From Alteromonas sp. (lineage in GTDB: Bacteria > Margulisbacteria > Marinamargulisbacteria > UBA6595), in the NCBI GenBank assembly GCA_964220215.1, contig CAXPTH010000003.1, positions 5,246-69,245 on the forward strand: a stretch of DNA of 64,000 nucleotides, written 5' to 3'. The notes beneath the pieces were generated by a model, which had not been told where the DNA came from, made no database searches, and saw only the letters and a program-made list of their open reading frames with translations. This document shows, piece after piece, positions 6,369-39,219 of this stretch (the stretch's first letter is position 1; every line of letters starts with the position of its first letter). A program made the translations under genes and the position numbers.

Positions 6369-6429
6369 TGCATTTAGTATACTGGCTTTTGGGTTAATTG
6401 GCTATGTGCGCGTGGATTTAATACGTGAA

Positions 6430-20219: not shown

Positions 20220-23200
20220 TTATTTCTTATCAAGATGATCTAGACTTATTACCTTCGTACAATCTTTTTCTGCTTTTAAAGGAGGGAAAGAACTGTCTAC
20301 TGCTGCTGCTCGTGCTTCTGGAGACTCCTCTAATGCTTGTATCACTTTTTCAAAATATATCATATTGATATGGAAATCGTTGCCTTTTATATTGAACGTC
20401 GAGTTATATAAATACTTTTTATACATATTAAAACGAAAATATGGATAAATATTTAATTCTTTCTTAATTTTTTCTAGTTCGCTTTTAAAACTCTCTGGTA
20501 AATTTTGAATAGCTATTGCTTCATCCAGGTTTTCTAATACTTGTTTTTTTGTTGTTATATGATTGAAGTTATCTATATTAAGGAAAAAACTATCATTAGT
20601 TTTTATATTTTTATTTAGTATCTCGCTTGCAGATATCACTGCTTCTGCTCGTGCTTCTGCTCGTGCTTCTGCTTTTGCTTCTGCTCGTGCTTCTGCTGCT
20701 GCTTCTACTCGTTTTGCTGCTCGTGCTTCTTCTGCTTCTGCTGCTGCTAGTGCTGCTACTGGTGCTGCATCTGATTCTACTGATGCTGCATCTGATTCTA
20801 CTGCTGCTGCTGCTCGTGCTTCTGCTATTTTAATTGAACTCATTTCAACGCCTACACTGAAAAAATTAGAAATTAGATATGACAATGAGTTATTAGAAAC
20901 GCTCTTGTTAATAAAATAATCAAGTACTAACAACGGAATAACTGGAACAAATGTAGCCAGTGATTTTTTATATTTATGATCGGGGTATTTTGAACTAATT
21001 ATAGAAATTAAAATCTGTGCTAGAGCAGCTAAACCAGGGGCTATAAAACTAGGGGCTATATTAAGGTTATCAGAAATAGAAGCAGGTATTAGACTCACCT
21101 CATCAAGACAATTCAAAATAAGTCTGACTAGAGGAGGTGCTTCATAGTCAAACTGCCTCAAGATATCGATTCCTAAACGACCAAATACGCTAATAAGTAT
21201 TAGTGCAAAAGCTATGTATCCTAAAAGATCTTTTTGATATTTTATATCTTGAATATTGGTTTTTAGTCTACTGAGCAAAGCTGTTTTTTCTTGAGGACTA
21301 AGATTATCCAATTTATCTCTTAATTCTTTATCACTAATTAAATCAAGAAGAGCCGTAAAGGCCTTCTCATTTTCATAACTTAATCGACGACCAGAGGGGG
21401 TATGCGAATCGAGTGCACGCAAAAGCTTGTCTATGCTGTCCGTTTTTGGAAGCCGATAAAGCTCCATAACATTTTTGTTTTTAATTATATCTATTAATTC
21501 TTCATCTGTGAAAGACAAGGTTATTGATGTGCCTGTTGTTGTGTCAATCACGGTGACGACGGTGCTAGTGGTTCTGGTTGCTGTGTTGGTTGTGGAAACA
21601 ATGGTGGCGGTGGTGGTGCCTGTTGTTGATAGGGTTGTGGTTGTGGTGGTGGTGGATGTCTTACTTGTGGTGCTTGAGGTTGACGTGGGCGATGTGGTGG
21701 TGGATGTTGCTGTCGTTGTTGAGGTTGCTGATATGCCTGTTGTTGTGTCAGTCACGGTGGTAGTGGCGGTGGTGTTTCCGGTTGCTGTGTTGGTTGTGGT
21801 CACGGTGGTGGTGGTGGTGGTGGGTGTTGTTGATAGGGTTGTGGTTGTGGTGGTGGTGGGTGTAGTCGTGGTGGTGCTTGAGCTTGATGTGGTTGATGTG
21901 GTGGGCGTTGTTGTCGTTGTTGAGGTTGTTGATGTGCTTGTTGTTGTGTCAGTCACGGTGGTAGTGGCGGTGGTGGTTCCGGTTGCTGTGTTGGTTGTGG
22001 TCACGGTGGTGGTGGTGGTGGTGGGTGTTGTTGATAGGGTTGTGGTTGTGGTGGTGGTGGGTGTAGTCGTGGTGGTTGACGTGGGCGATGTGGTGGATGT
22101 TGTTGTCGTTGTTGAGGTTGTTGATGTGCCTGTTGTTGTGTCAGTCACGGTGGTAGTGGCGGTGGCGGTTGTGGTGCCTGTTGTTGATGTACTTGTTTCT
22201 GTTACTGTTTTTGTTGTCGATGTTGGTGTGATCGTTGTTGTGGTGGTTGATGTTGATGTTGATGTTTTTGATGTTGTTGTGATTGTTAATGATGTGGTGG
22301 TACCTGTGCTTGGTGAAGTTGTTAGCGTGACCGATGTTGTGAATGCACACTGAATAGCGGCATCGAAATTTTCATTCGTATCCAAGCAATTTGCAATATG
22401 TTTTTCGCTCAAGTCAAGCTGGCCACCTTGGCCATCATCTAAAATAGCATTTACAGCCTGTTCAATGTTATTTGAAATTTCTCCAAGTTTAGCTAAAATA
22501 ATTTGTTTTATATTATTGTATTGTGCATTGTTTAAATCGTTTGCGTTATAAATTCCCCATGCTAACCATTGTGCAGCAGCGTCTGCAGTACCAGATACTT
22601 TTGCCTGATCAACAGCATATTGCCAATTTGATGAACTTTTTTGCCCGGATCCTCTGAGATTACCTATTTTACTCGTAGTTTTAGGTCTGGTGCTTGATCC
22701 ATCTGCACGTGAACCTGTTGCTGGCACTATTCCCATAAAACCTGATGGCTGTGCGTCTGCAGTAGTTGCTGCCATAAGTAGAGTAGCGATTCGTAAAATA
22801 CTAATAGCAGCTGAACTACCAGCTCTCCTGTTTCTACTTCTCTTAGCATCTTTCTGCTCTTCCCAGGCAAATTTAACGCTATGTATAGTATCTTCAAACA
22901 CTGGTTCTTGATACAGATTGTCTATCATGTTGGCTGTGTTGATGTTTTCTAATAACTCCGTTATCGATTCTTTATTACAGGTATAGTGAGTCACCGTGTC
23001 GTTATCAAATTCAAATAACACTGGAGGGTTATTGTTGAATTCTTTTAGTTCAGCGATGCTTTTTTCAATATCTGTCTGTAATTCTTTACTTTTTTTTGCA
23101 GTGCTCTTTAAATGCTCCAAACACGTGATTGTCTTTCTGTAATTATCTAAGTTTGTTAGAAATCGTTTTGCTTGACTAATTGATTTCTGTACTTCTAATG

Positions 23201-24299
23201 AACTTTCAATACAATTAATCGGATTGGCAAATAATTGGTTTGGATTGTTTTTATGGTTATTTAAGTTTTCGTTGAATATCGTTGTGTCAATAGTTTTAGC
23301 TTCTTTTTTTAATTCGGCGATTGTTTCAAATTGACCGATTGAATCATTTAGCCAACTTACTGCTCGTTCCAACTCAGGAGTAACAGACGCTGAATTGAGC
23401 AAGTGTTCTAATAAAGTATTGTTTGTTATGTTTGCTAACTGGTTTTTTAGGTCCTCATTAATAACGCCATCTTTTTTTAATGCCTTAAGTCGTTGAGGAA
23501 AATTACTTAGTGTGGTGTAGTGTTGAGTCAATAACTTAGCATTCAAAGCAATGGTGTCTACAGTGGCCTTAGTTAGTGGTTTTTCAGAAGAAAGAGCCTC
23601 ATGAATAGTGGTTAAAATTTTGTTTTGAATCGCTGAGTGTTTTGTCTGAAGGGTTTCATCCAATACTTGGGTGAGTTCTGTAAGCCTATTGAGTAAGTTG
23701 TTGGGATCACTTGATTTCAGATTTTCTATTTTTTTACAAATAACCTTAATTGTTTCAGAATCGCTATCCTTATGCTTGTCTAGAACAAATTGTATATAGT
23801 GTTTGGATACTTCTTGCTTGATTTTGGTTGCTTGTTGGCTAATCTGACAAATGTTTTCTTTTTTAGTTAGAACGGCATCCAATTCATTAAGCGTATTACT
23901 TAGTTCTGTGCTTTTTTTATTTATTTCTTTGTTTAAATAGCACGCTGTGCTTAAGTTAAGCAGCAATTGTGATTTTGTTAAAATTTTCCCTGGTAGCTGG
24001 TTGTCATTTTGATTGTTTCTGGATTGGTTTATTTGCTCATTTATAATATTTTTTAGTTTAATTAATTGTTGTGGACAGTCTTTCCCGAGTTTAACCATGA
24101 TTTCGTAAGATTTTATATTAAACTGATAAGCCTCTTGAATTTTTTGATTGGTAGGAGTGACTGGATTAGGCCCCCATGCTGGTATAGGGGAGGTCTGACT
24201 TTTTGTAAATGGTTTTGTTTTCACGCCATTTTTCGTTTGGCTTGATGCTAATCTAGCTGATGCTGGTCTAGCTGATAATTTTTGTATTTTTGTTGTCAT
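20220..24299 (-). CDS. giant coiled-coil / mucin-like Thr-Pro-rich repeat protein with C-terminal hydrophobic segments and an (EARA)n tract
   Basis: 1359-aa ORF. The N-terminal ~480 aa are Asn/Lys/Leu-rich and coiled-coil-like. A central ~330-aa run is almost pure Thr/Ser/Pro in ~64-67-aa repeats. The C-terminus has three hydrophobic helices and AEARAEAKAEARAEARAEA. The DNA is visibly AT-rich relative to its neighbours. Confidence 0.7.
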   Translation of the reverse strand: MTTKIQKLSARPASARLASSQTKNGVKTKPFTKSQTSPIPAWGPNPVTPTNQKIQEAYQFNIKSYEIMVKLGKDCPQQLIKLKNIINEQINQSRNNQNDNQLPGKILTKSQLLLNLSTACYLNKEINKKSTELSNTLNELDAVLTKKENICQISQQATKIKQEVSKHYIQFVLDKHKDSDSETIKVICKKIENLKSSDPNNLLNRLTELTQVLDETLQTKHSAIQNKILTTIHEALSSEKPLTKATVDTIALNAKLLTQHYTTLSNFPQRLKALKKDGVINEDLKNQLANITNNTLLEHLLNSASVTPELERAVSWLNDSIGQFETIAELKKEAKTIDTTIFNENLNNHKNNPNQLFANPINCIESSLEVQKSISQAKRFLTNLDNYRKTITCLEHLKSTAKKSKELQTDIEKSIAELKEFNNNPPVLFEFDNDTVTHYTCNKESITELLENINTANMIDNLYQEPVFEDTIHSVKFAWEEQKDAKRSRNRRAGSSAAISILRIATLLMAATTADAQPSGFMGIVPATGSRADGSSTRPKTTSKIGNLRGSGQKSSSNWQYAVDQAKVSGTADAAAQWLAWGIYNANDLNNAQYNNIKQIILAKLGEISNNIEQAVNAILDDGQGGQLDLSEKHIANCLDTNENFDAAIQCAFTTSVTLTTSPSTGTTTSLTITTTSKTSTSTSTTTTTITPTSTTKTVTETSTSTTGTTTATATTTVTDTTTGTSTTSTTTTTSTTSPTSTTTTTPTTTTTTTLSTTPTTTTTTVTTTNTATGTTTATTTVTDTTTSTSTTSTTTTTPTTSTTSSSSTTTTTPTTTTTTTLSTTPTTTTTTVTTTNTATGNTTATTTVTDTTTGISATSTTTATSTTTSPTSTSSTTSKTSTTTTTTTLSTTGTTTATIVSTTNTATRTTSTVVTVIDTTTGTSITLSFTDEELIDIIKNKNVMELYRLPKTDSIDKLLRALDSHTPSGRRLSYENEKAFTALLDLISDKELRDKLDNLSPQEKTALLSRLKTNIQDIKYQKDLLGYIAFALILISVFGRLGIDILRQFDYEAPPLVRLILNCLDEVSLIPASISDNLNIAPSFIAPGLAALAQILISIISSKYPDHKYKKSLATFVPVIPLLVLDYFINKSVSNNSLSYLISNFFSVGVEMSSIKIAEARAAAAVESDAASVESDAAPVAALAAAEAEEARAAKRVEAAAEARAEAKAEARAEARAEAVISASEILNKNIKTNDSFFLNIDNFNHITTKKQVLENLDEAIAIQNLPESFKSELEKIKKELNIYPYFRFNMYKKYLYNSTFNIKGNDFHINMIYFEKVIQALEESPEARAAAVDSSFPPLKAEKDCTKVISLDHLDKK
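20640..20830. repeat. 12-bp simple sequence repeat (gcttctgctcgt)n encoding (EARA)n, plus a duplicated ESDAASV unit
   Basis: Read directly: gcttctgctcgtgcttctgctcgtgcttctgcttttgcttctgctcgt... Confidence 0.8.
21480..22350. repeat. intragenic tandem repeat, about four copies of a 192-201-bp unit encoding the Thr-rich module
   Basis: The unit tgttgttgtgtcagtcacggtggtagtggcggtgg... recurs at about 21738, 21939 and 22131, with a diverged copy near 21534. Confidence 0.8.
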
Positions 24300-24329
24300 A
24301 TATCTCCCCTTTCTTGATTCTTAATTTCT

Positions 24330-25265
24330 TTAAAATGTTATGCCTGCAAACACGGTGCCAACGAGGGTTCGTTCTTTGGTTAGTCGTTTCCGACCATATT
24401 CATCTACGGATAGCTCCCCTGGATTTTCTTGAAATCTGGCTTGCGTGCCAATTAGTATCGAATTTATGCTGAGCATAGCCCCCAATTCGCCATATACTGA
24501 TACTTGATTATTGGTGTAATAGAATTGCCGGGGTTGAACAATAAGATCTTCCCTCTTGATATTATCGATATCATTCACAATAGATTCAATTAGATTTTGT
24601 CTTGGTAACGTGTAGTTTTTCCCATAAATGCTGGCTGTGCTAATCACGAGCCCTCCGCCAATGTACAGATCAAATTGGGTATTGTATGCGTGTTTGGCGT
24701 ACAGTGATTTGCGCACTCCCAACCGGCCGGCGTGGATGTATTTGCTGCTACCACTGTTGGATAAGTTAAATATTTCGGTTAGGTTACTTGTGTCCCGGAA
24801 AGCATACATATTCGCATCAATAGCTATATATATAACTGGCATCTTTATGGTAACCCCTGGACGATATTCATGAACAACGGTATGCCCGTATCCGGCGACA
24901 ACCCATAGTTGAGGGCTTAGCCATTGCCGGCTAATTTCAATGCCTTGTTCATACCCAAACCGTTTGCTTGGTTTTAGGCTTACTGTGTAATTTGTATTTT
25001 CATTTCCATTAATATAGTATTCCTCAACCGATTTAGCTGGCGGTTGACTGCTTTGGTATGGCCCGGGTCCCAGGGGTAGACCACCATATAGTCGTACTTG
25101 CCACATGCCCCAGTTGGGTTTTCGAGTCTGTTTATTGTGTGTCGTGTTTACTTCATCCGTAGCGTTTTCGTGAATGTTGTAATGCAGCTCGGCAAATCCA
25201 TTGGTTGTGTATAAACCGATGAATACAGCGATGATAAATTTAGTGTGCAAGTTTAGTTTTTTCAT
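24330..25265 (-). CDS. outer-membrane beta-barrel protein (signal peptide, C-terminal Phe)
   Basis: MKKLNLHTKFIIAVFIGLYTTNGFA signal peptide, alternating amphipathic strands, terminal ...FAGITF. Confidence 0.55.
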   Translation of the reverse strand: MKKLNLHTKFIIAVFIGLYTTNGFAELHYNIHENATDEVNTTHNKQTRKPNWGMWQVRLYGGLPLGPGPYQSSQPPAKSVEEYYINGNENTNYTVSLKPSKRFGYEQGIEISRQWLSPQLWVVAGYGHTVVHEYRPGVTIKMPVIYIAIDANMYAFRDTSNLTEIFNLSNSGSSKYIHAGRLGVRKSLYAKHAYNTQFDLYIGGGLVISTASIYGKNYTLPRQNLIESIVNDIDNIKREDLIVQPRQFYYTNNQVSVYGELGAMLSINSILIGTQARFQENPGELSVDEYGRKRLTKERTLVGTVFAGITF

Positions 25266-25325
25266 TTTTCCCTTCTAATTCCCCTTCTATTTTTCCCTTC
25301 TAATTCTCCTTCTAATATTTTTGAT
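25265..25325. repeat. short direct repeats (cccttctaattc / ccttcta, 4 copies) upstream of the OMP gene
   Basis: Seen in sequence. On the gene strand these read as reiterated AGAAGG(G/A)GAATTAG, i.e. repeated SD-like elements. Confidence 0.5.
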
Positions 25326-25455
25326 TTTATGTGTTTCTCTGTTTTATTTTTAAAAACACAACTTAAATTATAATAAAATTCGATACAAATGTCAACAATT
25401 TATTTTAAAAATGGATTAATTTGTGTCAAAAATAGAGGGGCGGTTTGGGTGTTGA

Positions 25456-26505
25456 TTAGAGATAGTTGTCTGGGTGGGGGATGGGTAGATTTAGATGGGG
25501 GTATCGATCCGTGAGTGATCGGGCAAAATGGTAGTCAAGTTCTTGAATAGACTGGGGCAGTGGGTATAAGTGCCCATAGTGCATGGCGGTGTAGTGGGGG
25601 CCTTCTCCAAAAAACCGTTGCCACATGTCCCAGCGTTCCATACAGAAGTAAATGAGGGTTTCTGGCTTCAGGTATCGGTAAAGATCGGCCAAAATATGGG
25701 CATACATCTGGTTTCGAATGGGTTTTGGGTATCGCAATTTGCCATCATCCCCCAGTACCATTTCAGCGGCAGTGAGTGAAGACGTTGGAAAATTGCTTTC
25801 CATTTTCTTTTTCATTTCGGGTTTGAATCGCAAGGAGCCAATGGATAGCCAGGCTAATCGATCGGGTTGAATGTGTGCAAACAATTGATCCACTAAATCG
25901 GTGTATTCGGCTTCCCAGTTATCATGAATAATCATGGGGTCAATGTGCACGCCCACCAGGTAGCCGGCATCGTAAACCGCTTTCATGGCGGCCAATCGAT
26001 CCGCTAGTCGCGCGGTTTTATGTTCTTCGGCATTCACTACGGCATGGGTGTTTAGCGACCAAGACACAACGGTTTTTTGCCCGTGATCTAGGGTTAAAAT
26101 GGGGGCGACTACATCGGATTTTGTTTTTAGCTCCAGTAAGGCATTGGGGATATCTCGAAATCGCTCAATGAGCGCCGCCGCTTGACCGGTTTGAACCTCC
26201 AATGCGAGGCTGTCGCCCAGTTCCCAGGTGCCAATTCGAAAGAGCCGGTTGGGTTCTCGATCCACTTTTTCGTGGACATTGGCCATGATGGCGTCAATGT
26301 CTTGAATGACTTTGGTGTTGCCGTCGTTGAGGTAGTCTTGTAAAAAACAGTAGCTGCAATCAAAGGGGCAATTGCTTACGGTTTTAATAACTTGAACATT
26401 GCAGCATACATATTTGTTGCTAATGGTGGCACAGGTGTCCATGACATCGCCTTTTTTGGGGATATATTGGATCTTCGCTTTGCCGTCGCGATAGTATCGG
26501 CTCAT
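25456..26505 (-). CDS. radical SAM enzyme of the spore-photoproduct-lyase (SPL/COG1533) family
   Basis: CPFDCSYC (CxxxCxxC) radical SAM cluster motif near the N-terminus; 349 aa; overall SPL-like arrangement. Confidence 0.7.
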   Translation of the reverse strand: MSRYYRDGKAKIQYIPKKGDVMDTCATISNKYVCCNVQVIKTVSNCPFDCSYCFLQDYLNDGNTKVIQDIDAIMANVHEKVDREPNRLFRIGTWELGDSLALEVQTGQAAALIERFRDIPNALLELKTKSDVVAPILTLDHGQKTVVSWSLNTHAVVNAEEHKTARLADRLAAMKAVYDAGYLVGVHIDPMIIHDNWEAEYTDLVDQLFAHIQPDRLAWLSIGSLRFKPEMKKKMESNFPTSSLTAAEMVLGDDGKLRYPKPIRNQMYAHILADLYRYLKPETLIYFCMERWDMWQRFFGEGPHYTAMHYGHLYPLPQSIQELDYHFARSLTDRYPHLNLPIPHPDNYL

Positions 26506-27416
26506 AGCAATGCCATCATACTGGATACTACGGGTTCAGCCTTTTGAAGTTGTTGGCTTAAGTGGTTGAGTTCGTGCGGGTCTCTGAGTGTGCAATGCAG
26601 GGCCAATTGGCGATTTTCCAAGCTATGGTCCCACTGAATTTGAATGCCGTCAGGTGCGGTTTGAGATAGTTGGGTTAGCTGGGCATTGACGGTATGCACG
26701 GTGGGTTGGACTTGGTTGCTTAGATGCTGAATTAATGCGGAAGCTCCCTGGGTCTTGAGAATGTGCTGCGTGTCTGGCTCAGCAAGGATGGCGGATGCGG
26801 GTGTATTGTGACGTTTAGATAAGTCATGCAATTGATCGGCAATGCGAAGCCAATTGCTGCTGGATACGTGTACAGACGCAACGACTGTTTCTAGAGTATG
26901 CAAGAGCTCTTGGGTATAGGAAGCCAGTCGCAAGCACACGGCAAAACTTAGGGCGTGTTGGTGGCAGCGGGTTTGAATTGTTTGGGGTAGCTGAGCGATT
27001 TTTTTACTGTGAACGAGCAGTGCGTTGTAATGCTGAAGGCCCAAGGGGGCGCAGTGGTCGGCCAATGAGGCCGTCGTGGATTTCCAGTTTAATAAAAACA
27101 AGACTTTTTGCATCACTGAACGGTTTAGTTTTTCTGCGTGGGCCTCGAGCATGAGCGTGTATTGCTCAAATTCAGACGCGGGTATTAGGCTGGCCAGGAT
27201 ATGCGTGCTGGGGCAGTGTGTTAAGCGTTGGTAGCCGTCTAGTAGCGTATAGCCATCTGCGGTAGGGGTTACCCATATGGGCGATAGGATTCCGGTTTGA
27301 TGCATTGACTGAACCAACGATTCGCGTGGTGGCGTGGCTAGATGTTTGGGGAAGCTGGATTCGTAGTCTGTGATGTTAATGTCTGCAATCGCAATAGTGG
27401 TTTGGCGTATTCCCAT
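26502..27416 (-). CDS. ParB/Sulfiredoxin-like N-terminal domain protein with helical C-terminal region
   Basis: ILSPIWVTPTADGYTLLDGYQRL resembles the ParB/Srx core (DGxxR). Its stop overlaps the SPL start (ATGA). Confidence 0.5.
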   Translation of the reverse strand: MGIRQTTIAIADINITDYESSFPKHLATPPRESLVQSMHQTGILSPIWVTPTADGYTLLDGYQRLTHCPSTHILASLIPASEFEQYTLMLEAHAEKLNRSVMQKVLFLLNWKSTTASLADHCAPLGLQHYNALLVHSKKIAQLPQTIQTRCHQHALSFAVCLRLASYTQELLHTLETVVASVHVSSSNWLRIADQLHDLSKRHNTPASAILAEPDTQHILKTQGASALIQHLSNQVQPTVHTVNAQLTQLSQTAPDGIQIQWDHSLENRQLALHCTLRDPHELNHLSQQLQKAEPVVSSMMALL

Positions 27417-27528
27417 AATTGTCTAATCAGTGTACCATTTTGATTAAAGACTTTAAATTGATTAATTAACTTGATTGAATTTTAGATATAGTCTTAATCT
27501 TAATTGCATAAAATCAAGAGGAGCTTTT

Positions 27529-28242
27529 ATGACAAACATATCCAGATGTAATGCCCGTCAATACCATGCATTATCGACACAAGGTAGTATTCCGCCTGCT
27601 CTGGCGGTAGTGATAGAAGAAGAAAAAAATATGCTTTGCTAAAGGCTTTGGAATACGTTCAATCTAGCGGAAAATACTTGGCTCATCTCCCACAGTTTGC
27701 AGATAATAAAGACGTTGTTATGGCTGCGATTAATCAGAATCCGGTAGCAATTCATTGGGCAGATAGTAGTCTTAAAGAAGATCCAGAAATTGCGTCTATG
27801 GCTCTCAATAAGGAACCCAAAACCTTGGAGTTTTTGCCTGATAGTATAAAAAATAACAAGGAATTAGTGCTGGAAGCGGTTCAAAAATTCGGCTTAGTTT
27901 TTCGGCTTAGTTTTAGAGTACGCATCGGATGCGCTGAAAGATGATTCAGACGTAGTTGAAGCCGCTGTGAAAAGTTCTTGGGAATCATTTTTATTTGCAT
28001 CTGATCGATTGAAGCAGTCTGGGCATATTCGTGCGGCTTCAGGCAAGGAAGATAGATTTCTAAACCGTTTGAAGTGCGTTCACTCAACAATAAGTGGGCG
28101 AATTAGATTGCAACCAATTACTTTTTTTGATGATCGTTGTGAAGCTTCTGATAAAATCCGTATTGTTTTGTCTGATTCTAATGATGAAAATATGAAAAAT
28201 TGTTGGGGTTTACAATGGCTATTAAACTTTCCTTGCCAATAA
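27529..28242 (+). pseudogene. DUF4116 (eukaryote-like repeat) gene disrupted by two frameshifts
   Basis: Strong SD (aagaggag) then ATG at 27529. The frame is lost at the A7 run (27623-27629). It resumes as KALEYVQSSGKYLAHLPQFADNKDVVMAAINQNPVAIHWADSSLKEDPEIASMALNKEPKTLEFLPDSIKNNKELVLEAVQKFGL, is lost again at a 13-bp tandem duplication, then continues as LEYASDALKDDSDVVEAAVKSSWESFLFASDRLKQ. These are DUF4116 repeats. Confidence 0.6.
27888..27913. repeat. perfect 13-bp tandem duplication (ttcggcttagttt x2) causing a frameshift in the DUF4116 gene
   Basis: Read directly. Removing one copy restores ...AVQKFGLVLEYASDALKDD... Confidence 0.85.
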
Positions 28243-28536
28243 CTCGGCAGCTAATCCCCCTCGATAGCATTGCGTTAGGTGGACGTATTTTTCAGCCCAT
28301 TGCAAATGGGTATCATAGTTCCCCTGGACTGTTTTTACATAGCGTCCGGGAACGCCCACCCACAATTCATTGGGGCCGACTCGGGTGTTTTCTTTGATCA
28401 CAGTTCCGGCGCCAATCGTGACCGACTCCCCAATAACCACGCACCGATTATTATCCCCAATAATATCCGCACTGGGCGCCACCCAGGCCGATTCATGAAT
28501 CCGTGGGGATTGACTGGGGATGACCATGCATGGCAA
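28222..28536 (-). CDS. hexapeptide-repeat (gamma-carbonic-anhydrase/YrdA-like) protein, internally shortened, possibly inactive
   Basis: N-terminus (ESAWVAPSADIIGD) and C-terminus (VVIGESVTIGAGTVIKENTRVGPNELWVGVPGRYVKTVQGNYDTHLQWAEKYVHL) are gamma-CA-like. About 60 central residues, including the His ligands, are missing. Confidence 0.45.
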   Translation of the reverse strand: MPCMVIPSQSPRIHESAWVAPSADIIGDNNRCVVIGESVTIGAGTVIKENTRVGPNELWVGVPGRYVKTVQGNYDTHLQWAEKYVHLTQCYRGGLAAELLARKV

Positions 28537-28687
28537 TCGTGATTTTATTCTGGAAGCGGTGAAGCAGAATGGGGATGCGTTGCAGTTTGCGAGTGAGGAA
28601 GTGCGTGGTGATCGTGATATGGTGAAGGCAGCGGTGTGGGATTGTGAAAATGCGGTTCGGTATGTGAGGTGGTATAGTACTCAATGA
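28526..28687 (+). pseudogene. orphan DUF4116 repeat fragment (53 codons)
   Basis: MHGNRDFILEAVKQNGDALQFASEEVRGDRDMVKAAVWDCENAVRYV is one DUF4116 repeat. It lies on the far side of the inverse hexapeptide gene from the main DUF4116 pseudogene. Confidence 0.45.
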
Positions 28688-31140: not shown

Positions 31141-31181
31141 AGTCTTAATGATACCGGGTTTTTTGCTGGTAGTGCCAGTCT

Positions 31182-32252: not shown

Positions 32253-32364
32253 TATTAACTCTATTTTAGCATAATGCGTAAAATAATTTGACCGGTTAAG
32301 AATTGTTTGGAGCTCATCAAATTTATGTTTTATTTCAAATCGATTTTAATGGTATACTAAAAAG

Positions 32365-34993: not shown

Positions 34994-36338
34994 TCAGCAC
35001 CCACAGCTATTGATTATGGGACGCCCCAATGTGGGAAAGTCCACGATTATTAATCGATTATTGGGAAAGCGACAAGCCATTACATCGGATGAATCAGGCG
35101 TCACTCGGGATATTGCGATGTACCCGTTAACGTGGGATTCCCATGCGCTGCTATTGGTGGACAGTGGGGGGGTGTTTTTAAGCAATTCCAGCGATATTTA
35201 TTTACAATCGGCTATTGAATCCAGGGTCAAGCATGCCATTGAGCAAGCCAGCGCAATTTTATTTGTCGTGGACTACCAAGCGGGTATTCAAACGCATGAT
35301 CAACTGATTGCACGGTATTTGCACCAGGCCAACCGACCGGTGTATGTGTTGGTGAATAAAGTGGACGATACCCGGGTGCATCATGAGTATACGGAGTTTT
35401 ATCGCTTGGGATTTGATGCGGTGTATCCAGTATCGGGGGCGCACGGCACTGGCTTTTCGGATTTGTTGGATGCCGTGTGCACGCAGGTGTATGCTGAAGC
35501 AGATAAGGTAGAGGCGGTAGAATCAGACGCTAGTCACAGCATTGCGTTTATTGGGCGCCCGAATGTGGGCAAGTCGTCGTTGCTCAATACAATTTTAAAT
35601 GATGAGCGTGTGCTGGTGGATAATAAAGCTGGAACCACCCGAGATTCCATTCGGGTGCCGTTTCAATTTCAGGATCAGTCGTTTATGTTGGTGGATACGG
35701 CGGGTATTCGCCGAAAATCAAAAATTACCGATGATGTTGAGTATTATTCGGTCGTTCGGTCCTCCTCTGCCATGAGTGATGTGGATGTGGTTGTGCTAGT
35801 TTTGGAGGCGGATCCGTTTTTAACCGATCACGATAAGCGGTTGCTTAGTATGGCCATGGATTCGGCCAAGGCCATTATTGTCTTTGTGAATAAATGGGAT
35901 TTGTTGGAACGCAGCGATGCCAATCGGCGTTCGTTAATTAAAAAAGCGACCTGGGCGATGCCCGCCTTGCAGCATTATCCGTTTATTTTTGGGTCGGCCC
36001 ATTTGGGGCATCAGCATCACAGTATTTTTGCAAAGATTCCGGATTTGGTGGCTCGGAGTCAGCAACGCATTCAAACATCGCGGTTAAATCAGTTTATTCG
36101 ATCGGTGGTGGATCACAGCCAACCGCCCTCAAAAACGGGGCAGCCGTTGCGTATTTTTTATGCCACACAAGCGGAAAGCAGCCCGCCAACGTTTATCTTT
36201 TTTGTGAATAACAAACAGTTGCTATCGCCACAATACCAACGATTTTTAGAGAAACGCTTTCGAGAGGCGTTTGATTTTGAGGGGGTCCCCATTCGGTTAT
36301 TTTTTAAGAATCGAGCTAAAGTTAATATTCGAGAGTAA
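34986..36338 (+). CDS. der: ribosome-biogenesis GTPase Der (EngA)
   Basis: Two tandem GTPase domains (GRPNVGKST x2) plus KH-like C-terminus. Confidence 0.9.
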   Translation: MSNQHPQLLIMGRPNVGKSTIINRLLGKRQAITSDESGVTRDIAMYPLTWDSHALLLVDSGGVFLSNSSDIYLQSAIESRVKHAIEQASAILFVVDYQAGIQTHDQLIARYLHQANRPVYVLVNKVDDTRVHHEYTEFYRLGFDAVYPVSGAHGTGFSDLLDAVCTQVYAEADKVEAVESDASHSIAFIGRPNVGKSSLLNTILNDERVLVDNKAGTTRDSIRVPFQFQDQSFMLVDTAGIRRKSKITDDVEYYSVVRSSSAMSDVDVVVLVLEADPFLTDHDKRLLSMAMDSAKAIIVFVNKWDLLERSDANRRSLIKKATWAMPALQHYPFIFGSAHLGHQHHSIFAKIPDLVARSQQRIQTSRLNQFIRSVVDHSQPPSKTGQPLRIFYATQAESSPPTFIFFVNNKQLLSPQYQRFLEKRFREAFDFEGVPIRLFFKNRAKVNIRE

Positions 36339-37734
36339 GCGATTCTTTTTCTCTTCCCCATAATTGTTGATGAAGCGTCCCATTTTTTTGAGCGCCCCTG
36401 TATAAAATTTTAAATTTATTTTGAATCGTAGCCAGTATTTTTTTTTGATAAACAGGGTGGTGTTCGATGAGCAAATGGCGAATTAAACTAGCCAGTCGAT
36501 AGATATCCATGGCCAGGTAGCGGTGCGATAATTGATCGGCATGGCCACCGTATTTCACAACCGTGGGTATCGGGGATAGCCCAATTGGTAATTCTCTTGA
36601 TAGAGACAACCATAAATCATAATCTTCACAAGCGGGCAACTGGGTTTGGAACCCCCCATGAGCCAGGAGCCAGTCCCGCCGAATTAATACCGCAGAGGGG
36701 GACACCATACACCGTTGGCAAGCGGCATCAAATATCCAGCCGGCAACCTTAATATGATGCCGTTGGGGCATGACTGGCTTACCATGACGAATCCATTGCT
36801 CAGGACTTTGCAACCAATAGTAAAAGGGGGCTTCCGCATGCGTTTTGCACAGCCGTTCAATGTGATCTGGCAACCAATAATCATCGTTATCTAAAAAGGC
36901 CACCCACGGTGTTTGGGCGTGGTGAATTCCACAATTTCGAGCATAGGAAACCCCTCGAGCCGATTCCGGTTCTCGAATGACCGAACATGCCGATACGGGG
37001 TACGTTTGGTCATAGACTGATTGAATGGCCCGGCGTGTTTCACGCGGTCGTTGAAAAGCTGGAATAATTGCCGTAATATCATCGGGGGTTACAGGCGCCC
37101 AGGTCAATAGTGCTTGAATATCGGCATGCAAACTCGGCAACTGGTTTTTATAGTCCCGAATCGATGGTTGATGGCCAAAATCACTCACACGCTTAAGCAC
37201 ATGAAAGGAGGTTGGGGTATTGTGAAAAACAGCCGCCTGAGCACTCGCTTCCATATCAACACACGGTGCCAAGGGCCACGCTGGCACAGCATGCACCGGC
37301 GTGGGGCTGCTATACAAGGTATCCGTACTGTATGGGGCCAGTGGCCACGGAATCGGCAAACGGTCTGGCATTGTATACCGGGTAGTTTGCGTCTGCACAT
37401 GCGTTATATGCAACCAAGTGCCCCAAGGATGGTGACGCTGTAACGCCGCACAGGTTCCAATATTAACCACATACCGGGGATTGAGCTCGGTGTGAATATA
37501 CTCAGCGGCCTGGTGCGACTGAGCCAGTCCAAGACCGGTAACAACAATGGCCACACGATCAAATAAGTAATAAATGGATGTGCCCTTAGGTGGACGCCAT
37601 TGGGGGGGCAGTTCAGCGGCCAAGGCCACAGTAATGACTAATTCGAGCTTATAGGTTGCTGGCAAGCCGACCGCGATTGCGTTGTTCCCGAAGCGCATCC
37701 AATTCGGGGTTTTTGGGGTCATCCGGACGTCCAA
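36322..37734 (-). CDS. fusion protein: PNP_UDP (nucleoside phosphorylase/MTA-nucleosidase)-like N-domain plus family 2 glycosyltransferase
   Basis: N-terminus ...VVTGLGLAQSHQAAEYIHTELNPRYVVNIGTCAAL (PNP_UDP_1-like). C-half IIPAFQRPRETRRAIQSVYDQTYP...ARNCGIHHAQTPWVAFLDNDDYW...CEDYDLW (GT2 DxD and ED motifs). The 5' end overlaps the upstream oxygenase gene. Confidence 0.6.
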   Translation of the reverse strand: MDVRMTPKTPNWMRFGNNAIAVGLPATYKLELVITVALAAELPPQWRPPKGTSIYYLFDRVAIVVTGLGLAQSHQAAEYIHTELNPRYVVNIGTCAALQRHHPWGTWLHITHVQTQTTRYTMPDRLPIPWPLAPYSTDTLYSSPTPVHAVPAWPLAPCVDMEASAQAAVFHNTPTSFHVLKRVSDFGHQPSIRDYKNQLPSLHADIQALLTWAPVTPDDITAIIPAFQRPRETRRAIQSVYDQTYPVSACSVIREPESARGVSYARNCGIHHAQTPWVAFLDNDDYWLPDHIERLCKTHAEAPFYYWLQSPEQWIRHGKPVMPQRHHIKVAGWIFDAACQRCMVSPSAVLIRRDWLLAHGGFQTQLPACEDYDLWLSLSRELPIGLSPIPTVVKYGGHADQLSHRYLAMDIYRLASLIRHLLIEHHPVYQKKILATIQNKFKILYRGAQKNGTLHQQLWGREKESLTLEY

Positions 37735-38452
37735 TAAATGTTGTGGAGTGTGCTGGCAATGTCACGCTAGATTCCAAAGCCGTGTAATAGTACACAGCAA
37801 TAGACTTTCGCGTCATGGACTCGGGACATTGAATGGGGTCTGGGAACCCATGGTAAGATCGCTCCGACGTATTAAATAAGACAAATCGATTAAAGAGTGG
37901 GGCAACACTGGCCATTTTTTTTGTTAAAACATGCTGATTGTTGGCATCTTGGTGGCCATCCCAAATGTCAAAAAAACCACCGTAAGCATCCTCCCAGTCT
38001 TTGTTTAAATATAAAATTCCATTGAGCCTGCGATGCAATTTGAGTTTTGGGTGAATATTAAAATCAATGTGGATGTCCAATTTGCCCCCACGCTGCGATT
38101 GATGGATGCCCCCGCCCCGATAATACGGATCCGGAATCAGGCCGTCAATGCCGGTCAACGCTTCTAAAAAATTTAAAAATTGCGCACTGTTTAATTCTTG
38201 GAGAATCGCCACAATGGGGTCTGGCAACACCGATAATCGATCCATGCCGAGTTTTTTTTCTAAGGGGTTGTCGTATTTGTAAAAGGCCATCGAATCGGGG
38301 CTTGGGAACGCATCCAAAGCTGCATTCGCTGCATCGGTTTGTGCAAAATTATCAAATTGAATATAGGGATACGGTTCTGTGTTTTGATACGATTGTGCGT
38401 GTGTATTGGCTAAATCGGTTAGTGTTGTGTAATCAAAAATCATGTTCATCAA
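37649..38452 (-). CDS. 2-oxoglutarate/Fe(II) oxygenase, prolyl-4-hydroxylase-like
   Basis: HIDFN (HxD), RLNGILYLNKDWEDAYGGFF (P4H-type YLN...W...GG motif), distal SYHGF His and RK about 14 aa later. Confidence 0.6.
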   Translation of the reverse strand: MMNMIFDYTTLTDLANTHAQSYQNTEPYPYIQFDNFAQTDAANAALDAFPSPDSMAFYKYDNPLEKKLGMDRLSVLPDPIVAILQELNSAQFLNFLEALTGIDGLIPDPYYRGGGIHQSQRGGKLDIHIDFNIHPKLKLHRRLNGILYLNKDWEDAYGGFFDIWDGHQDANNQHVLTKKMASVAPLFNRFVLFNTSERSYHGFPDPIQCPESMTRKSIAVYYYTALESSVTLPAHSTTFIGRPDDPKNPELDALREQRNRGRLASNL

Positions 38453-38493
38453 TAATACCCAACACTAATAAATTGTGTCAATTTATTTCTTTA

Positions 38494-39219
38494 TCAATGG
38501 GATAAATAATTCGCAATAATACCCGCTGTAACCGCAACGTTCAACGATTCAACGTGGGGTGCTGTTGGAATTCGAATTTTTTCTGGCTTATAGCGGCTAT
38601 TTAGTGATTCTCGCACACCGTGGCCTTCAGACCCTAATATAATCCCCAATTTGACTGGTTTTTTTAGGCGTTTGAAATCGGGGTTCCCCGTTGGATCCAG
38701 TGCATACCAAGCTCGGTCCACTGGCAGCGCATCGTCGGCTAGGCTGACAACCGGTTGACGATGAATCATGCCGGCACTGGCTCGTACACAATCCGGATGA
38801 AACGGATCCGAACCTTGCCCACAACACACAACCAACGCACTGGGCAAAAATGCCGATACGGACCGAATAATGGCTCCCAAATTACCTGGATTTTGAATGG
38901 TATCGCACACAACCCAATGCGTATACTCAGCTTCAGCCGACCATGTCGGTTGGCGAATAATGGCGAAAACCCCTTGGGATCGCTGGGTTAACTTAATGCG
39001 ATTAAACCAGGATTCGCTAACGGTATAAACGGGCGCTTGAGCATTCAAGTCAAGGGCTGTCCCGTCGCGCAGAATGAAACATACAATATCAGCGGGCGGC
39101 ACTGCCTGCAAATGCTTGATTGACTCACTGACATAAACCCCATAAGACTTTCGTGCATCCGCTGCCGTCGCTAACCGATTAATTGTTTTATACGAGTAGG
39201 GCAGAGACTCAATAGACAT
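38494..39219 (-). CDS. SpoU/TrmH-family RNA 2'-O-methyltransferase
   Basis: GNLGAIIRS and SPOUT knot motifs (LGSEGHGV, LNVAVTAGI). Confidence 0.75.
   Translation of the reverse strand: MSIESLPYSYKTINRLATAADARKSYGVYVSESIKHLQAVPPADIVCFILRDGTALDLNAQAPVYTVSESWFNRIKLTQRSQGVFAIIRQPTWSAEAEYTHWVVCDTIQNPGNLGAIIRSVSAFLPSALVVCCGQGSDPFHPDCVRASAGMIHRQPVVSLADDALPVDRAWYALDPTGNPDFKRLKKPVKLGIILGSEGHGVRESLNSRYKPEKIRIPTAPHVESLNVAVTAGIIANYLSH

What the first reader, a model, noticed from the sequence alone, without database searches (positions are those of the whole stretch)
25456..27416. Translationally coupled ParB/Srx-like protein and SPL-family radical SAM enzyme
A 304-aa protein with a ParB/sulfiredoxin-type N-terminal domain (ILSPIWVTPTADGYTLLDGYQRL) ends in ATGA overlapping the start of a radical SAM enzyme. 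That enzyme carries the CPFDCSYC cluster motif and has spore-photoproduct-lyase-family (COG1533) organisation. SPL-like enzymes outside spore formers have no assigned function. Pairing one with a ParB-like (DNA-binding, CTPase or nuclease) module suggests a DNA-directed radical reaction such as repair, modification or a defence function. The pair sits in an accessory-looking stretch, between an AT-rich OMP/giant-protein island and a decaying eukaryote-like gene.
Basis: partly seen in the sequence, partly recalled or inferred. Interest (0 to 1): 0.65.

Follow-up and report, generated by a model that had tools for sequence, protein, structure and literature searches.

The report
ParB-like/radical-SAM pair in glycosylation operon
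The two overlapping genes are real and form the centre of an undescribed operon conserved in many bacterial phyla, which joins a spore-photoproduct-lyase-like radical SAM enzyme to an adenine-releasing nucleosidase, a sugar transferase and a reductase, so it probably builds a new glycosylated product and does not repair UV damage.

Summary
On the minus strand, a 304-aa ParB-fold protein (27416..26502) overlaps by ATGA a 349-aa radical SAM enzyme (26505..25456) of the spore photoproduct lyase (SPL) fold. The genome is a Candidatus Marinamargulisbacteria chromosome.

The pairing is not local. The ParB-like gene lies immediately upstream of the rSAM gene in 66 of 82 loci examined (about 75 have usable upstream DNA), under at least seven phylum labels.

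Two more genes recur with the pair: an MTA/SAH-nucleosidase-like domain fused to a GT2 glycosyltransferase (in the window at 36322..37734) and an aldo/keto reductase (absent from the window).

Metagenomes hold ParB-less variants: GT2, a free-standing nucleosidase, an SPL-like rSAM and an SDR or AKR reductase. The deeper core is therefore rSAM plus GT2, with nucleosidase and reductase recurring.

The rSAM lacks SPL's hydrogen-donor cysteine (E95 instead) and relay tyrosine (F54). It has four extra invariant cysteines.

No curated family, defence model, plasmid, phage or paper covers the module.

My best reading, inferred and not shown, is a hopanoid-side-chain-like route: adenosylation, adenine removal, reduction, glycosylation. 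The ParB-like protein would act as an NTP-gated adaptor, possibly to nucleic acid. The substrate is unknown.

The parts
26502..27416 (-). ParB-like protein, 304 aa: ParB N-terminal fold plus ParB-type helical DNA-binding-like middle domain plus a family-specific C-terminal domain of about 100 aa
   Evidence: ORF. Exhaustive phmmer family. hhalign against a canonical ParB profile: 97.2%, E 3e-11, 149 columns. AF2 model pLDDT 82. Foldseek top hits ParB 6t1f/7bnr, Noc 7nfu, Spo0J 1vz0 at probability 1.00. NCBI names an identical-cluster member 'ParB/Srx family N-terminal domain-containing protein'.
27225..27239 (-). DGYQR motif (residues 60-64), the DGxxR/GxxR nucleotide-binding motif of ParB-family NTPases (family consensus DGFKR)
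   Evidence: Read from the sequence. Aligns with GERR of Spo0J and ParB. G61 is kept in 94% and R64 in 88% of 64 family members. DGQQR is the NTPase motif of DpdB and SspE (PMC10164549).
26613..26633 (-). WDHSLEN (residues 262-268) in a predicted beta-hairpin of the C-terminal domain, the most conserved stretch of the family
   Evidence: D263 and E267 are kept in 100%, W262 in 92% and L266 in 97% of 64 sequences. Strands 258-262 and 271-275 in the model. This C-terminal part is the only part kept in the short variant-3 partners.
26502..26505 (-). ATGA stop/start overlap between the two genes
   Evidence: Across 69 loci the two genes overlap or lie within 30 nt of each other in 52.
25456..26505 (-). 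SPL-fold radical SAM enzyme, 349 aa, of a distinct clade (signature GTWELGDS)
   Evidence: PF20903 at 90.3 bits. TIGR04070 at 112.5 bits against a cut-off of 400, and TIGR03886 at 67.9 against 437.55. AF2 model pLDDT 84. Foldseek best match is G. thermodenitrificans SPL, TM 0.71 over 293 columns, with the next rSAM at TM<=0.48.
26347..26370 (-). CPFDCSYC: the radical SAM [4Fe-4S] motif C46-x3-C50-x2-C53
   Evidence: Read from the sequence. Invariant in 79 of 79 family members.
36322..37734 (-). Third module gene, about 9 kb away: a 470-aa fusion of an MTA/SAH-nucleosidase-like domain (about residues 20-215) and a GT2 glycosyltransferase (about residues 220-456)
   Evidence: E 4.4e-131 against the HMM of the fusion gene that precedes the ParB-like gene in 43 other loci. 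Pfam PNP_UDP_1 28.7 bits (cut-off 25.1) and GT2 52.3 bits. N-domain profile against PDB MTANs E 6e-15. Invariant E41, D160-M161-E162 and D185 correspond to E. coli MTAN E12, E174 and D197; DxDD at 282-285 is invariant.

Best explanation
The pair is the middle of a conserved chromosomal module. In its full form the module reads: [MTA/SAH-nucleosidase-like domain fused to GT2 glycosyltransferase] - [ParB-like protein] - [SPL-fold radical SAM enzyme] - [aldo/keto reductase].

SHOWN:
- The four gene families co-localise in the same order and on the same strand under several phylum labels.
- The rSAM has the SPL fold but lacks SPL's hydrogen-donor Cys and relay Tyr.
- The nucleosidase domain keeps the full MTAN catalytic triad.
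- A carbonyl reductase recurs, as an AKR in one variant and an SDR in another.
- The ParB-like protein has the ParB N-domain and ParB-type middle-domain fold, with a DGxxR motif.

INFERRED mechanism:
1. The rSAM enzyme does not repair spore photoproduct. It uses the 5'-deoxyadenosyl radical productively, most likely by adding it to an sp2 carbon of its substrate, as HpnH and MqnE do. This gives an adenosylated intermediate.
2. The nucleosidase domain removes adenine and leaves a ribosyl adduct.
3. The reductase opens and reduces the ribose to a polyol.
4. The GT2 domain glycosylates the polyol.

This is the logic of bacteriohopanepolyol side-chain assembly (HpnH, HpnG, reduction, HpnI), carried out by unrelated or only distantly related proteins.

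The ParB-like protein would dock through its conserved C-terminal domain onto the Cys-rich N-terminus of the rSAM. Through its DGxxR N-domain and basic middle domain it would act as a nucleotide-gated adaptor that brings the enzyme to its substrate. By analogy with DpdB helping DpdA, and given the DNA-handling SPL scaffold, that substrate may be a nucleic acid. The identity of the substrate is not established.
For: Module:
- The ParB-like HMM hits the ORF immediately upstream, on the same strand, in 66 of 82 loci. Spacing is within 30 nt or overlapping in 52 of 69.
- Clustering of flanking ORFs finds the nucleosidase-GT2 fusion in 43 loci and the AKR in 32.
- All four genes lie within 6 kb in 18 of 80 genome loci, labelled Nitrospirota, Desulfobacterota, Margulisiibacteriota and Binatota.
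- The reciprocal scan from the GT2 fusion recovers the same operon in metagenomes (L088, L090-L092).
- The window itself holds the fusion gene at 36322..37734.

Nucleosidase:
- The profile matches MTA/SAH nucleosidases at E 6e-15, and also aminodeoxyfutalosine nucleosidases.
- The equivalents of E12, E174 and D197 are invariant.

Not an SP lyase:
- Gt-SPL C140 aligns with E95 (96% of 79 sequences). Y98 aligns with F54 (100%).
- Equivalog scores are far below their cut-offs.

Reductase is integral: the ParB-less variant uses an SDR where the window-type variant uses an AKR, and L124 has an AKR.

Partner docking: the N-terminal Cys triad C25/C34/C35 is present exactly in the rSAM clades that have the ParB-like protein or its C-terminal part (variants 1 and 3), and absent in the ParB-less variant 2. 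The partner's only fully invariant residues (D263, E267) lie in its C-terminal domain.

Adaptor analogy: DpdB, a ParB-fold ATPase with a DGQQR motif, is required for DNA modification by DpdA (PMC10164549).

Pathway analogy: HpnH adenosylates, HpnG removes adenine, and HpnI (GT2) glycosylates (PMC13459092).

The middle domain of the partner is basic, with median pI 8.8.
Against: - No biochemical data exist, and every chemical step is inferred from domain content.
- SPL-family enzymes are known only for hydrogen abstraction, not for adenosyl addition.
- The nucleosidase could simply remove the inhibitory by-product 5'-deoxyadenosine.
- About 9 of 75 informative loci lack an adjacent ParB-like gene.
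- Variant 2 has no ParB-like protein at all, and variant 3 lacks the ParB N-domain. The ParB part is therefore not essential to the chemistry, which weakens the nucleic-acid inference.
- ParB boxes I and III (QPR, ENxQR) are not conserved.
- The window lacks an AKR within 64 kb. Its GT2 domain deviates at several otherwise conserved positions: E255 for D, E257 for S, N283 for S.
- The closest characterised GT2 relatives act on lipid-linked or small-molecule acceptors.
- 42 of 80 loci found through the GT2 domain have none of the partners nearby.
Confidence: 0.35

Rival explanations
1. A hydrogen-abstraction enzyme acting on DNA or RNA. The SPL-like rSAM abstracts a hydrogen from a base or a lesion, for repair or modification. 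The ParB-like protein is an NTP-gated clamp that scans nucleic acid. The nucleosidase domain only clears the inhibitory by-product 5'-deoxyadenosine. GT2 and the reductase elaborate the resulting product or have a separate role.
For: SPL fold at TM 0.71. ParB N-domain and ParB-type middle-domain fold. The MTAN family is known to relieve rSAM product inhibition (established knowledge), and the triad is conserved. An SprT-like gene is a neighbour in 16 mostly Nitrospirota loci.
Against: The fusion of nucleosidase to GT2 and the recurrent reductase (AKR or SDR) are not explained by by-product clearance. SPL's Cys and Tyr hydrogen-return relay is missing. ParB-less variants exist. Many carriers are labelled as coming from groundwater or other subsurface samples (record titles), where UV repair is not an obvious need (inference).
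Confidence: 0.25
2. A small-molecule or lipid glycoconjugate pathway in which the ParB-like protein is only a transcriptional regulator or scaffold of the operon and does not touch the substrate.
For: The nearest GT2 relatives are PglI, TuaG, WcaA and MftF, which use lipid-linked or small-molecule acceptors. ParB-less variants keep GT2, nucleosidase, rSAM and reductase. ParB-fold proteins such as DndB are named beside ParB in that superfamily (PMC10164549); that some act as regulators is established knowledge. No restriction-type partner genes were seen.
Against: A plain regulator would not be expected to co-vary with a Cys triad in the enzyme. Nor would it be expected to keep its invariant residues in a non-DNA-binding C-terminal domain and remain translationally coupled in mid-operon across phyla.
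Confidence: 0.2
3. An anti-phage defence or other mobile accessory system, as the first reader suggested as one option.
For: ParB-fold NTPases occur in Dnd, Ssp, Dpd and BREX-related systems (PMC10164549). PIN and DUF559 genes are inserted inside the cluster in a few loci.
Against: No PADLOC hit. No close relative on 72,556 plasmids or 50,697 phages. Only two distant (27%) hits in viral contigs, without partners. Core-like GC. Conserved housekeeping synteny within the lineage. 45-60% identity across phyla, which is unusual for defence genes.
Confidence: 0.05
4. A classical spore photoproduct lyase that happens to sit next to a ParB-like gene.
For: IMG and KEGG-style annotation as splB/K03716. 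SPL is the best structural match.
Against: TIGR04070 scores 112.5 bits against a cut-off of 400. The catalytic C140 is replaced by Glu and Y98 by Phe in essentially all members. The C-terminal 100 aa fall outside the SPL profile. None of the carrier taxon labels belongs to an endospore-forming group (labels; established knowledge). The obligate gene partners are unrelated to SP repair.
Confidence: 0.03

Closest known systems
Spore photoproduct lyase SplB (TIGR04070; PDB 4FHC, Geobacillus thermodenitrificans)
   Same: Radical SAM CxxxCxxC motif followed by a conserved Tyr (Y52 = Gt Y96). Same overall fold (TM 0.71, 293 aligned columns, 23% identity). Pfam PF20903 passes its cut-off.
   Different: The hydrogen-donor Cys140 is replaced by an almost invariant Glu, and the relay Tyr98 by an invariant Phe. 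Four extra invariant cysteines (C25, C34, C35, C288). Shorter N-terminus and a different C-terminal 100 aa. The equivalog score is about a quarter of the cut-off. The enzyme is encoded with GT2, nucleosidase, reductase and ParB-like partners in taxa not known to form endospores.
Bacteriohopanepolyol side-chain pathway (HpnH rSAM adenosylase, HpnG PNP-family nucleosidase, HpnI GT2)
   Same: Same set of activities in one gene cluster: a radical SAM enzyme, a PNP/MTAN-superfamily adenine-removing enzyme and a GT2 glycosyltransferase, plus here an explicit carbonyl reductase for the ribose-to-polyol step. This supplies the proposed logic.
   Different: No orthology. The rSAM is SPL-type, not HpnH-type. 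The HpnG and HpnB models score only 22.8 and 26.6 bits against cut-offs of 187 and 379. No hopanoid genes appeared among the recurrent neighbour clusters. The nucleosidase is MTAN-like and fused to the GT2. A ParB-like partner is present.
DpdB (and SspE, DndB): ParB-fold NTPase partners of DNA-modifying enzymes
   Same: ParB-fold N-domain with a DGxxR motif (DGQQR in DpdB and SspE; DGYQR here) followed by a helical domain. Encoded next to, and in the case of DpdB required by, an enzyme that modifies DNA.
   Different: No detectable sequence family relationship beyond the superfamily. The partner enzyme here is a radical SAM enzyme, not a transglycosylase or sulfur-transfer system. No restriction components. 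The C-terminal WDxxLE domain is specific to this family.
Chromosomal ParB/Spo0J/Noc CTPase clamps
   Same: N-terminal domain and the following helical DNA-binding-domain region align over 149 profile columns and about 200 structural columns. The G and the final R of box II are kept.
   Different: Box I (QPR) and box III (ENxQR) are not conserved. No canonical C-terminal dimerisation domain. No ParA partner is adjacent, and no parS site was examined. The gene sits in a metabolic-type operon.
MTA/SAH nucleosidase (MtnN/Pfs) and aminodeoxyfutalosine nucleosidase (MqnB-type)
   Same: The N-domain of the fusion protein matches them at E 6e-15 and keeps the E12, E174 and D197 equivalents. MqnB-type enzymes process the adenosylated product of the rSAM MqnE.
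   Different: Fused to a GT2 domain (or carrying an extra C-terminal extension of about 80 aa in variant 2). Far below any NCBIfam equivalog cut-off. The substrate is unknown.

Membership tests
Spore photoproduct lyase (SplB, TIGR04070 equivalog) | Radical SAM CxxxCxxC cluster motif and SPL fold | tested here: met
   CPFDCSYC at residues 46-53. PF20903 at 90.3 bits against a cut-off of 27. Foldseek TM 0.71 to 4fhc and 4rh0.
Spore photoproduct lyase (SplB, TIGR04070 equivalog) | Score at or above the curated equivalog cut-off (400 bits) | tested here: not met
   112.5 bits. Other family members score the same, e.g. L026 at 112 bits.
Spore photoproduct lyase (SplB, TIGR04070 equivalog) | Hydrogen-atom-donor cysteine (Gt C140 / Bs C141) and relay tyrosine (Gt Y98 / Bs Y99) | tested here: not met
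   In the HMMER alignment to 4fhg (the C140S mutant), position 140 aligns with E95 and Y98 aligns with F54. E95 is kept in 76 of 79 and F54 in 79 of 79 family members.
Spore photoproduct lyase (SplB, TIGR04070 equivalog) | Repairs 5-thyminyl-5,6-dihydrothymine in DNA | not testable with these tools
   Needs anaerobic enzymology.
TIGR03886 'spore photoproduct lyase family protein' (non-sporeformer clade) | Score at or above the cut-off of 437.55 bits | tested here: not met
   67.9 bits. Plasmid-borne members of that clade have unrelated gene contexts.
ParB/Srx superfamily | ParB N-terminal domain fold | tested here: met
   The window protein alone is below the Pfam cut-off (15 against 26.3 bits). 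A family member passes (28.5 bits). hhalign of the family against a ParB profile: 97.2%, E 3e-11. Foldseek probability 1.00 to ParB, Noc, Spo0J, PadC and sulfiredoxin.
ParB/Srx superfamily | GxxR / DGxxR nucleotide-binding motif (box II) | tested here: met
   DGYQR at residues 60-64 aligns with GERR. G is kept in 94% and R in 88% of 64 members.
Canonical ParB CTPase DNA clamp (Spo0J/ParB/Noc) | Box I (QPR) and box III (ENxQR) CTP-binding and hydrolysis motifs | tested here: not met
   These columns are not conserved in the family consensus in the hhalign alignment.
Canonical ParB CTPase DNA clamp (Spo0J/ParB/Noc) | Helix-turn-helix DNA-binding domain following the N-domain | tested here: inconclusive
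   The profile and structure alignments extend through this region, including the 'LPxxI...S..H/Q' helices, and the segment is basic. DNA binding itself was not tested.
Canonical ParB CTPase DNA clamp (Spo0J/ParB/Noc) | CTP binding/hydrolysis, parS recognition, ParA partner | not testable with these tools
   Biochemistry is needed. No ParA gene is adjacent in the window.
MTA/SAH nucleosidase family (PNP_UDP_1), for the window gene 36322..37734 | Domain match and catalytic Glu/Glu/Asp triad (E. coli E12, E174, D197) | tested here: met
   PF01048 at 28.7 bits against a cut-off of 25.1. Profile against PDB MTANs E 6e-15, with VDME and K..sD aligned to VEME and R..SD. E41, E162 and D185 are invariant. 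The residue numbering of E. coli MTAN is from my own knowledge.
GT2 glycosyltransferase, for the window gene 36322..37734 | GT-A domain with DxD motif | tested here: met
   PF00535 at 52.3 bits against a cut-off of 23.3. D282-x-D284-D285 is invariant. The window copy deviates at the upstream D/S positions (E255, E257).
Hopanoid side-chain enzymes HpnH/HpnG/HpnI | Orthology to the Hpn families | tested here: not met
   TIGR03468 HpnG at 22.8 bits (cut-off 187.1) and TIGR03469 HpnB at 26.6 bits (cut-off 379). No Hpn rSAM model appears among the rSAM's NCBIfam hits, and SPL is its best structural match. The resemblance is in pathway logic only.
Known anti-phage defence systems (PADLOC-DB 2.0) | Match to any defence protein model | tested here: not met
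   0 families for both proteins at E<=1.

The most novel reading that the evidence does not exclude
An SPL-scaffold radical SAM enzyme has switched from hydrogen abstraction to 5'-deoxyadenosyl addition onto a base in DNA or RNA. With its dedicated nucleosidase, reductase and glycosyltransferase, it installs a ribose-derived glycosylated polyol on nucleic acid. This would be a new class of nucleic-acid hypermodification made by free-living bacteria of many phyla. A ParB-fold NTPase would deliver the enzyme to its sites.
Probability: 0.12. Interest if true: 0.9.

Novelty: new variant of a known kind. Interest (0 to 1): 0.68.

Why it matters
SPL-family radical SAM enzymes outside spore formers have no assigned function. 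This clade gives a concrete and testable handle on that question.
- It is strongly conserved.
- It has lost the residues that define SP repair.
- It travels with three enzymes whose combined logic predicts what to look for: an adenosylated intermediate, a ribosyl or polyol adduct, and a glycoside.

If the adenosylation reading is right, the small set of C-adenosylating rSAM enzymes would gain a new scaffold. A dedicated reductase would also be identified for a step that still has no assigned enzyme in hopanoid biosynthesis. If the substrate is nucleic acid, this would be a new modification chemistry with a ParB-fold targeting factor.

There is also a practical annotation point. These genes are currently labelled 'spore photoproduct lyase', 'DNA photolyase' or 'hypothetical', which is misleading.

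Tried and rejected
- Literature: ten full-text searches found nothing on this pair or module. Terms combined SPL, SplB, COG1533, ParB, sulfiredoxin, radical SAM, nucleosidase, glycosyltransferase, aldo-keto reductase and adenosylation. Two further searches only supplied the Hpn and Dpd analogies.
- Word-indexed protein search for the ParB-like protein returned only 2 close hits. Exhaustive phmmer was needed. A profile search through the word index returned only 17 hits.
- PADLOC: no hits.
- Plasmids and phages: only SPL relatives at 31% identity or less. Two plasmid contexts I inspected were unrelated.
- Viral contigs: two distant jumbo-phage SPL-like genes without partners. The ParB-like alignment was too divergent to build search patterns.
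- Riboswitch or other RNA clues near the operons: none, in 12 loci and in window 24000-39500.
- AKR and the 257-aa 'c37' gene that sits between the rSAM and the AKR in some marine relatives: no homologue in the window.
- Genes inserted inside some clusters (PIN, DUF559, DUF4405) and neighbours of 'orphan' rSAM loci (two-component systems, cytochromes, ThiF, rhodanese, MotAB) are lineage-specific and uninformative.
- The 2OG-Fe(II) oxygenase next to the window's fusion gene is not found at the same position in relatives L002 and L005.
- I could not check whether C25, C34, C35 and C288 cluster in space, because model coordinates are not exposed.
Full report
**Observation**

One search lists two minus-strand ORFs. 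One is 26502..27416 (304 aa, containing ILSPIWVTPTADGYTLLDGYQRL). The other is 25456..26505 (349 aa, containing CPFDCSYC). The + strand reads tcat at 26502-26505, so the stop of the first gene and the start of the second share ATGA. The finding's coordinates and motifs are correct; it only omitted the strand.

**Organism and setting**

- Exact-sequence look-ups place the window's Der, MnmA, rSAM and ParB-like proteins in clusters whose NCBI members are named Candidatus Marinamargulisbacteria.
- NCBI already calls the 304-aa protein 'ParB/Srx family N-terminal domain-containing protein'. It calls the rSAM 'hypothetical protein', and IMG calls it 'spore photoproduct lyase'.
- The pair has GC 0.47-0.49, like the surrounding housekeeping genes. 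The adjacent island at 20-25 kb has GC 0.33-0.44.
- The island holds a 1359-aa Thr-rich repeat protein and a 311-aa protein, neither with a Pfam hit. On the other side lie DUF4116 fragments and a truncated hexapeptide-transferase ORF.
- Relatives whose rSAM is 62-65% identical (L002-L005) carry the pair near the same MiaB, NadE, MnmA, BacA, MetX, MetW, MenB, MenA and MenC genes.
- The pair is therefore core-like, not accessory.

**The two proteins**

The rSAM:
- It passes Pfam SPL (90.3 bits against 27). It falls far short of both NCBIfam SPL equivalogs (112.5 against 400; 67.9 against 437.55).
- Its AlphaFold model (pLDDT 84) matches G. thermodenitrificans SPL much better than any other rSAM structure (TM 0.71 against 0.48 or less).
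- In the HMMER alignment to 4fhg, the C140S mutant, SPL position 140 aligns with E95 and Y98 with F54. Y96 is kept as Y52.
- Across 79 family members, E95 is present in 96% and F54 in 100%. Seven cysteines are invariant: C46, C50 and C53, plus C25, C34, C35 and C288.
- The enzyme therefore has the SPL scaffold but lacks the residues that return the hydrogen atom in SP repair.

The ParB-like protein:
- It diverges fast. The word-indexed search found only two close relatives. Exhaustive phmmer found 165 representatives, mostly about 320 aa and full-length.
- The window copy is sub-threshold on Pfam ParB_N (15 bits), while a family member passes (28.5 bits).
- The family profile aligns with a canonical ParB profile at 97.2% probability (E 3e-11) over 149 columns. 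These span the N-domain and the helical DNA-binding-domain region.
- The model (pLDDT 82) hits ParB, Noc and Spo0J at probability 1.00 over about 200 columns.
- Box II is kept as DGxxR (DGYQR here). DpdB and SspE use DGQQR for NTPase activity (PMC10164549). Boxes I and III are not kept.
- The last 100 residues or so have no structural match. They hold the family's only fully invariant residues, D263 and E267, in WDxxLE.
- The middle domain is basic, with median pI 8.8.

**Synteny**

- Their deposited labels are Nitrospirota, Desulfobacterota/Thermodesulfobacteriota, Margulisiibacteriota, Nitrospinaceae, Binatota, Bdellovibrio, Deferribacteres, Gammaproteobacteria and several unclassified MAGs.
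- An HMM of the ParB-like family hits the ORF immediately upstream, on the same strand, in 66 of 82 loci. Most misses are contig ends, and nine loci with upstream DNA lack it.
- The two genes overlap or lie within 30 nt of each other in 52 of 69 loci.

**The larger module**

- Clustering of flanking ORFs revealed two further recurrent genes. One is a protein of about 480-500 aa upstream (43 loci). The other is a protein of about 330 aa downstream (32 loci).
- The upstream gene is a fusion of a PNP_UDP_1 nucleosidase-like domain and a GT2 glycosyltransferase. The downstream gene is an aldo/keto reductase.
- All four genes lie within 6 kb in 18 of 80 loci under four phylum labels.
- The window has the fusion gene at 36322..37734 (E 4e-131 to the cluster HMM; Pfam cut-offs passed for both domains). 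It has no AKR.
- A profile of the N-domain matches MTA/SAH nucleosidases at E 6e-15, and also aminodeoxyfutalosine nucleosidases.
- The equivalents of E. coli MTAN E12, E174 and D197 (E41, E162, D185) are invariant, as is the GT2 DxDD motif. The domain therefore looks like an active adenine-releasing hydrolase.

**Variants**

A reciprocal scan of metagenome contigs from the fusion protein recovered the same operon, which I call variant 1 (L088, L090-L092, L097). It also recovered two others.
- Variant 2 (about 20 loci; OxyR, glutaredoxin and a 114-aa ORF as neighbours in five of them): GT2, a free-standing MTAN-like nucleosidase, a more distant SPL-like rSAM, and an SDR reductase (an AKR in L124). 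It has no ParB-like gene.
- Its rSAM lacks C25, C34 and C35 and has Tyr at position 95.
- Variant 3 (L101, L137, L153): GT2, a 190-aa protein that matches only the C-terminal 180 positions or so of the ParB-like family, and an rSAM that has the Cys triad and E95.
- The constant core is therefore GT2 plus an SPL-like rSAM.
- The nucleosidase and a carbonyl reductase recur, and the reductase shows non-orthologous displacement between AKR and SDR.
- The ParB N-domain is a lineage-specific addition.
- The enzyme's N-terminal Cys triad co-varies with the presence of the partner's C-terminal part.
- NCBIfam has no equivalog for any of these proteins.
- 42 of 80 loci found through the GT2 domain have none of the partners nearby, so the GT2 family is broader than the module.

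**Mobility and defence**

- No PADLOC match.
- No close relative on plasmids or phages.
- Only two distant jumbo-phage SPL-like genes, without partners.
- Other plasmid-borne 'SPL family' genes sit in unrelated contexts.
- No riboswitch lies near the operons.

**Interpretation**

What is shown is a conserved, undescribed module built around this pair. What follows is inference.

An rSAM enzyme that has lost the SPL hydrogen-return relay is obligatorily encoded with three activities: an MTAN-type adenine-releasing hydrolase (fused to a GT2), a carbonyl reductase and a glycosyltransferase. This is the same set of activities that builds the bacteriohopanepolyol side chain. There, HpnH adds the 5'-deoxyadenosyl radical to an alkene and HpnG removes adenine. 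The ribose is then opened to a tetrol and HpnI glycosylates it (PMC13459092). MqnE with an MTAN-type nucleosidase in the futalosine pathway is a second precedent (established knowledge; both structures appear).

I therefore favour, at about 0.35, an adenosylation, adenine removal, reduction and glycosylation route on an unknown substrate. In it, the ParB-like protein docks by its C-terminal domain on the Cys-rich N-terminus of the rSAM and acts as a nucleotide-gated adaptor. A nucleic-acid substrate is suggested by the SPL scaffold, the ParB N-domain and ParB-type middle-domain fold, the basic middle domain and the DpdB precedent. It is weakened by the ParB-less variants and by the GT2's nearest relatives, which use lipid-linked or small-molecule acceptors.

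The main rivals are:
- Hydrogen-abstraction chemistry on DNA or RNA, with the nucleosidase only scavenging 5'-dAdo (about 0.25).
- A small-molecule or lipid pathway in which the ParB-like protein is merely a regulator (about 0.2).
- Defence (about 0.05).
- Classical SP repair (about 0.03).

**Novelty and verdict**

The finding is better described as the ParB-like/rSAM core of a four-activity operon. The operon is widespread, uncurated and, as far as ten full-text searches could tell, unpublished. I rate it a new variant of known kinds (SPL-family rSAM, ParB-fold partner, MTAN, GT2), with interest about 0.68. It gives a direct experimental route to the function of non-sporeformer SPL-like enzymes and may reveal new adenosylation or nucleic-acid-modification chemistry.

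Noticed in passing
window 20220..25265 (-): A low-GC island (0.33-0.44) with a 1359-aa protein carrying long Thr/Ser-rich near-repeats and Ala/Glu/Arg repeats, and a 311-aa protein. Neither has a Pfam hit. A perfect sigma-70 consensus (TTGACA-17-TATAAT) at 25395..25367 sits just upstream of the 311-aa gene. Contigs of the two closest relatives (L001, L006) end right after the rSAM gene, which suggests a hypervariable or repeat-rich junction.
   Followed up: partly
window 27636..28242 (+): A DUF4116 repeat protein (70.5 bits) broken into short overlapping ORFs, which looks like a decaying gene. Next to it lies a 104-aa remnant of a hexapeptide-repeat transferase at 28222..28536 (-).
   Followed up: partly
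window 37649..38452 (-) and 38494..39219 (-): A 2OG-Fe(II) oxygenase (PF13640, 59 bits) overlaps the annotated 5' end of the nucleosidase-GT2 fusion gene and is followed by a SpoU-family RNA methyltransferase. The oxygenase is not found at this position in L002 or L005, so the link to the module is probably incidental. The true start codon of the fusion gene is uncertain (TTG at 37734, or downstream ATGs).
   Followed up: partly
window 36322..37734 (-): The window's GT2 domain deviates from its family at otherwise 92-97% conserved positions (Q228 for N, E255 for D, E257 for S, N283 for S, M322 for N, N451 for R). No AKR is present in the 64 kb. The module may be relaxing or rewired in this lineage.
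   Followed up: no
L099, L100, L106, L108, L118, L124, L126, L128, L141, L142, L147, L149, L155, L159 (metagenome contigs): A ParB-less variant operon: GT2, a free-standing MTAN-like nucleosidase (277 aa, with a C-terminal extension of about 80 aa), a distant SPL-like rSAM (Tyr at position 95, no N-terminal Cys triad), and an SDR or AKR. In five of the loci it is flanked by OxyR-like LysR, glutaredoxin and a 114-aa ORF (unannotated here).
   Followed up: partly
L101, L137, L153: A variant in which the partner is a 190-aa protein corresponding only to the C-terminal 180 residues or so of the ParB-like family (no ParB N-domain). The rSAM still has the Cys triad and E95. No nucleosidase was detected nearby.
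   Followed up: partly
L086 and L087 (IMG/VR contigs of 151 kb and 320 kb), 5911..6882: Jumbo-phage-sized viral contigs encode a distant SPL-like radical SAM protein (27% identity, CPYRCSYCFLQ motif) without ParB-like, GT2 or AKR partners.
   Followed up: partly
L016 4349-4795, L064 4823-5236, L026 2397-2816: PIN-domain toxin genes and a DUF559 (Vsr-like endonuclease) gene are inserted between module genes in some Nitrospirota loci. These are small mobile insertions inside an otherwise conserved operon.
   Followed up: no
L008, L009, L010, L028 (between the rSAM and the AKR): A conserved acidic protein of about 257 aa with no Pfam hit (cluster c37) sits between the rSAM and the AKR in L009 (Marinamargulisbacteria) and three MAGs with other or no taxon labels. 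It has no homologue in the window.
   Followed up: partly
L168 (Roseomonas plasmid NZ_CP061179.1) 2299..4420: Two tandem 'spore photoproduct lyase family' genes lie directly after repA/repB of a 421-kb replicon. This is a different SPL-like clade with a different context.
   Followed up: no
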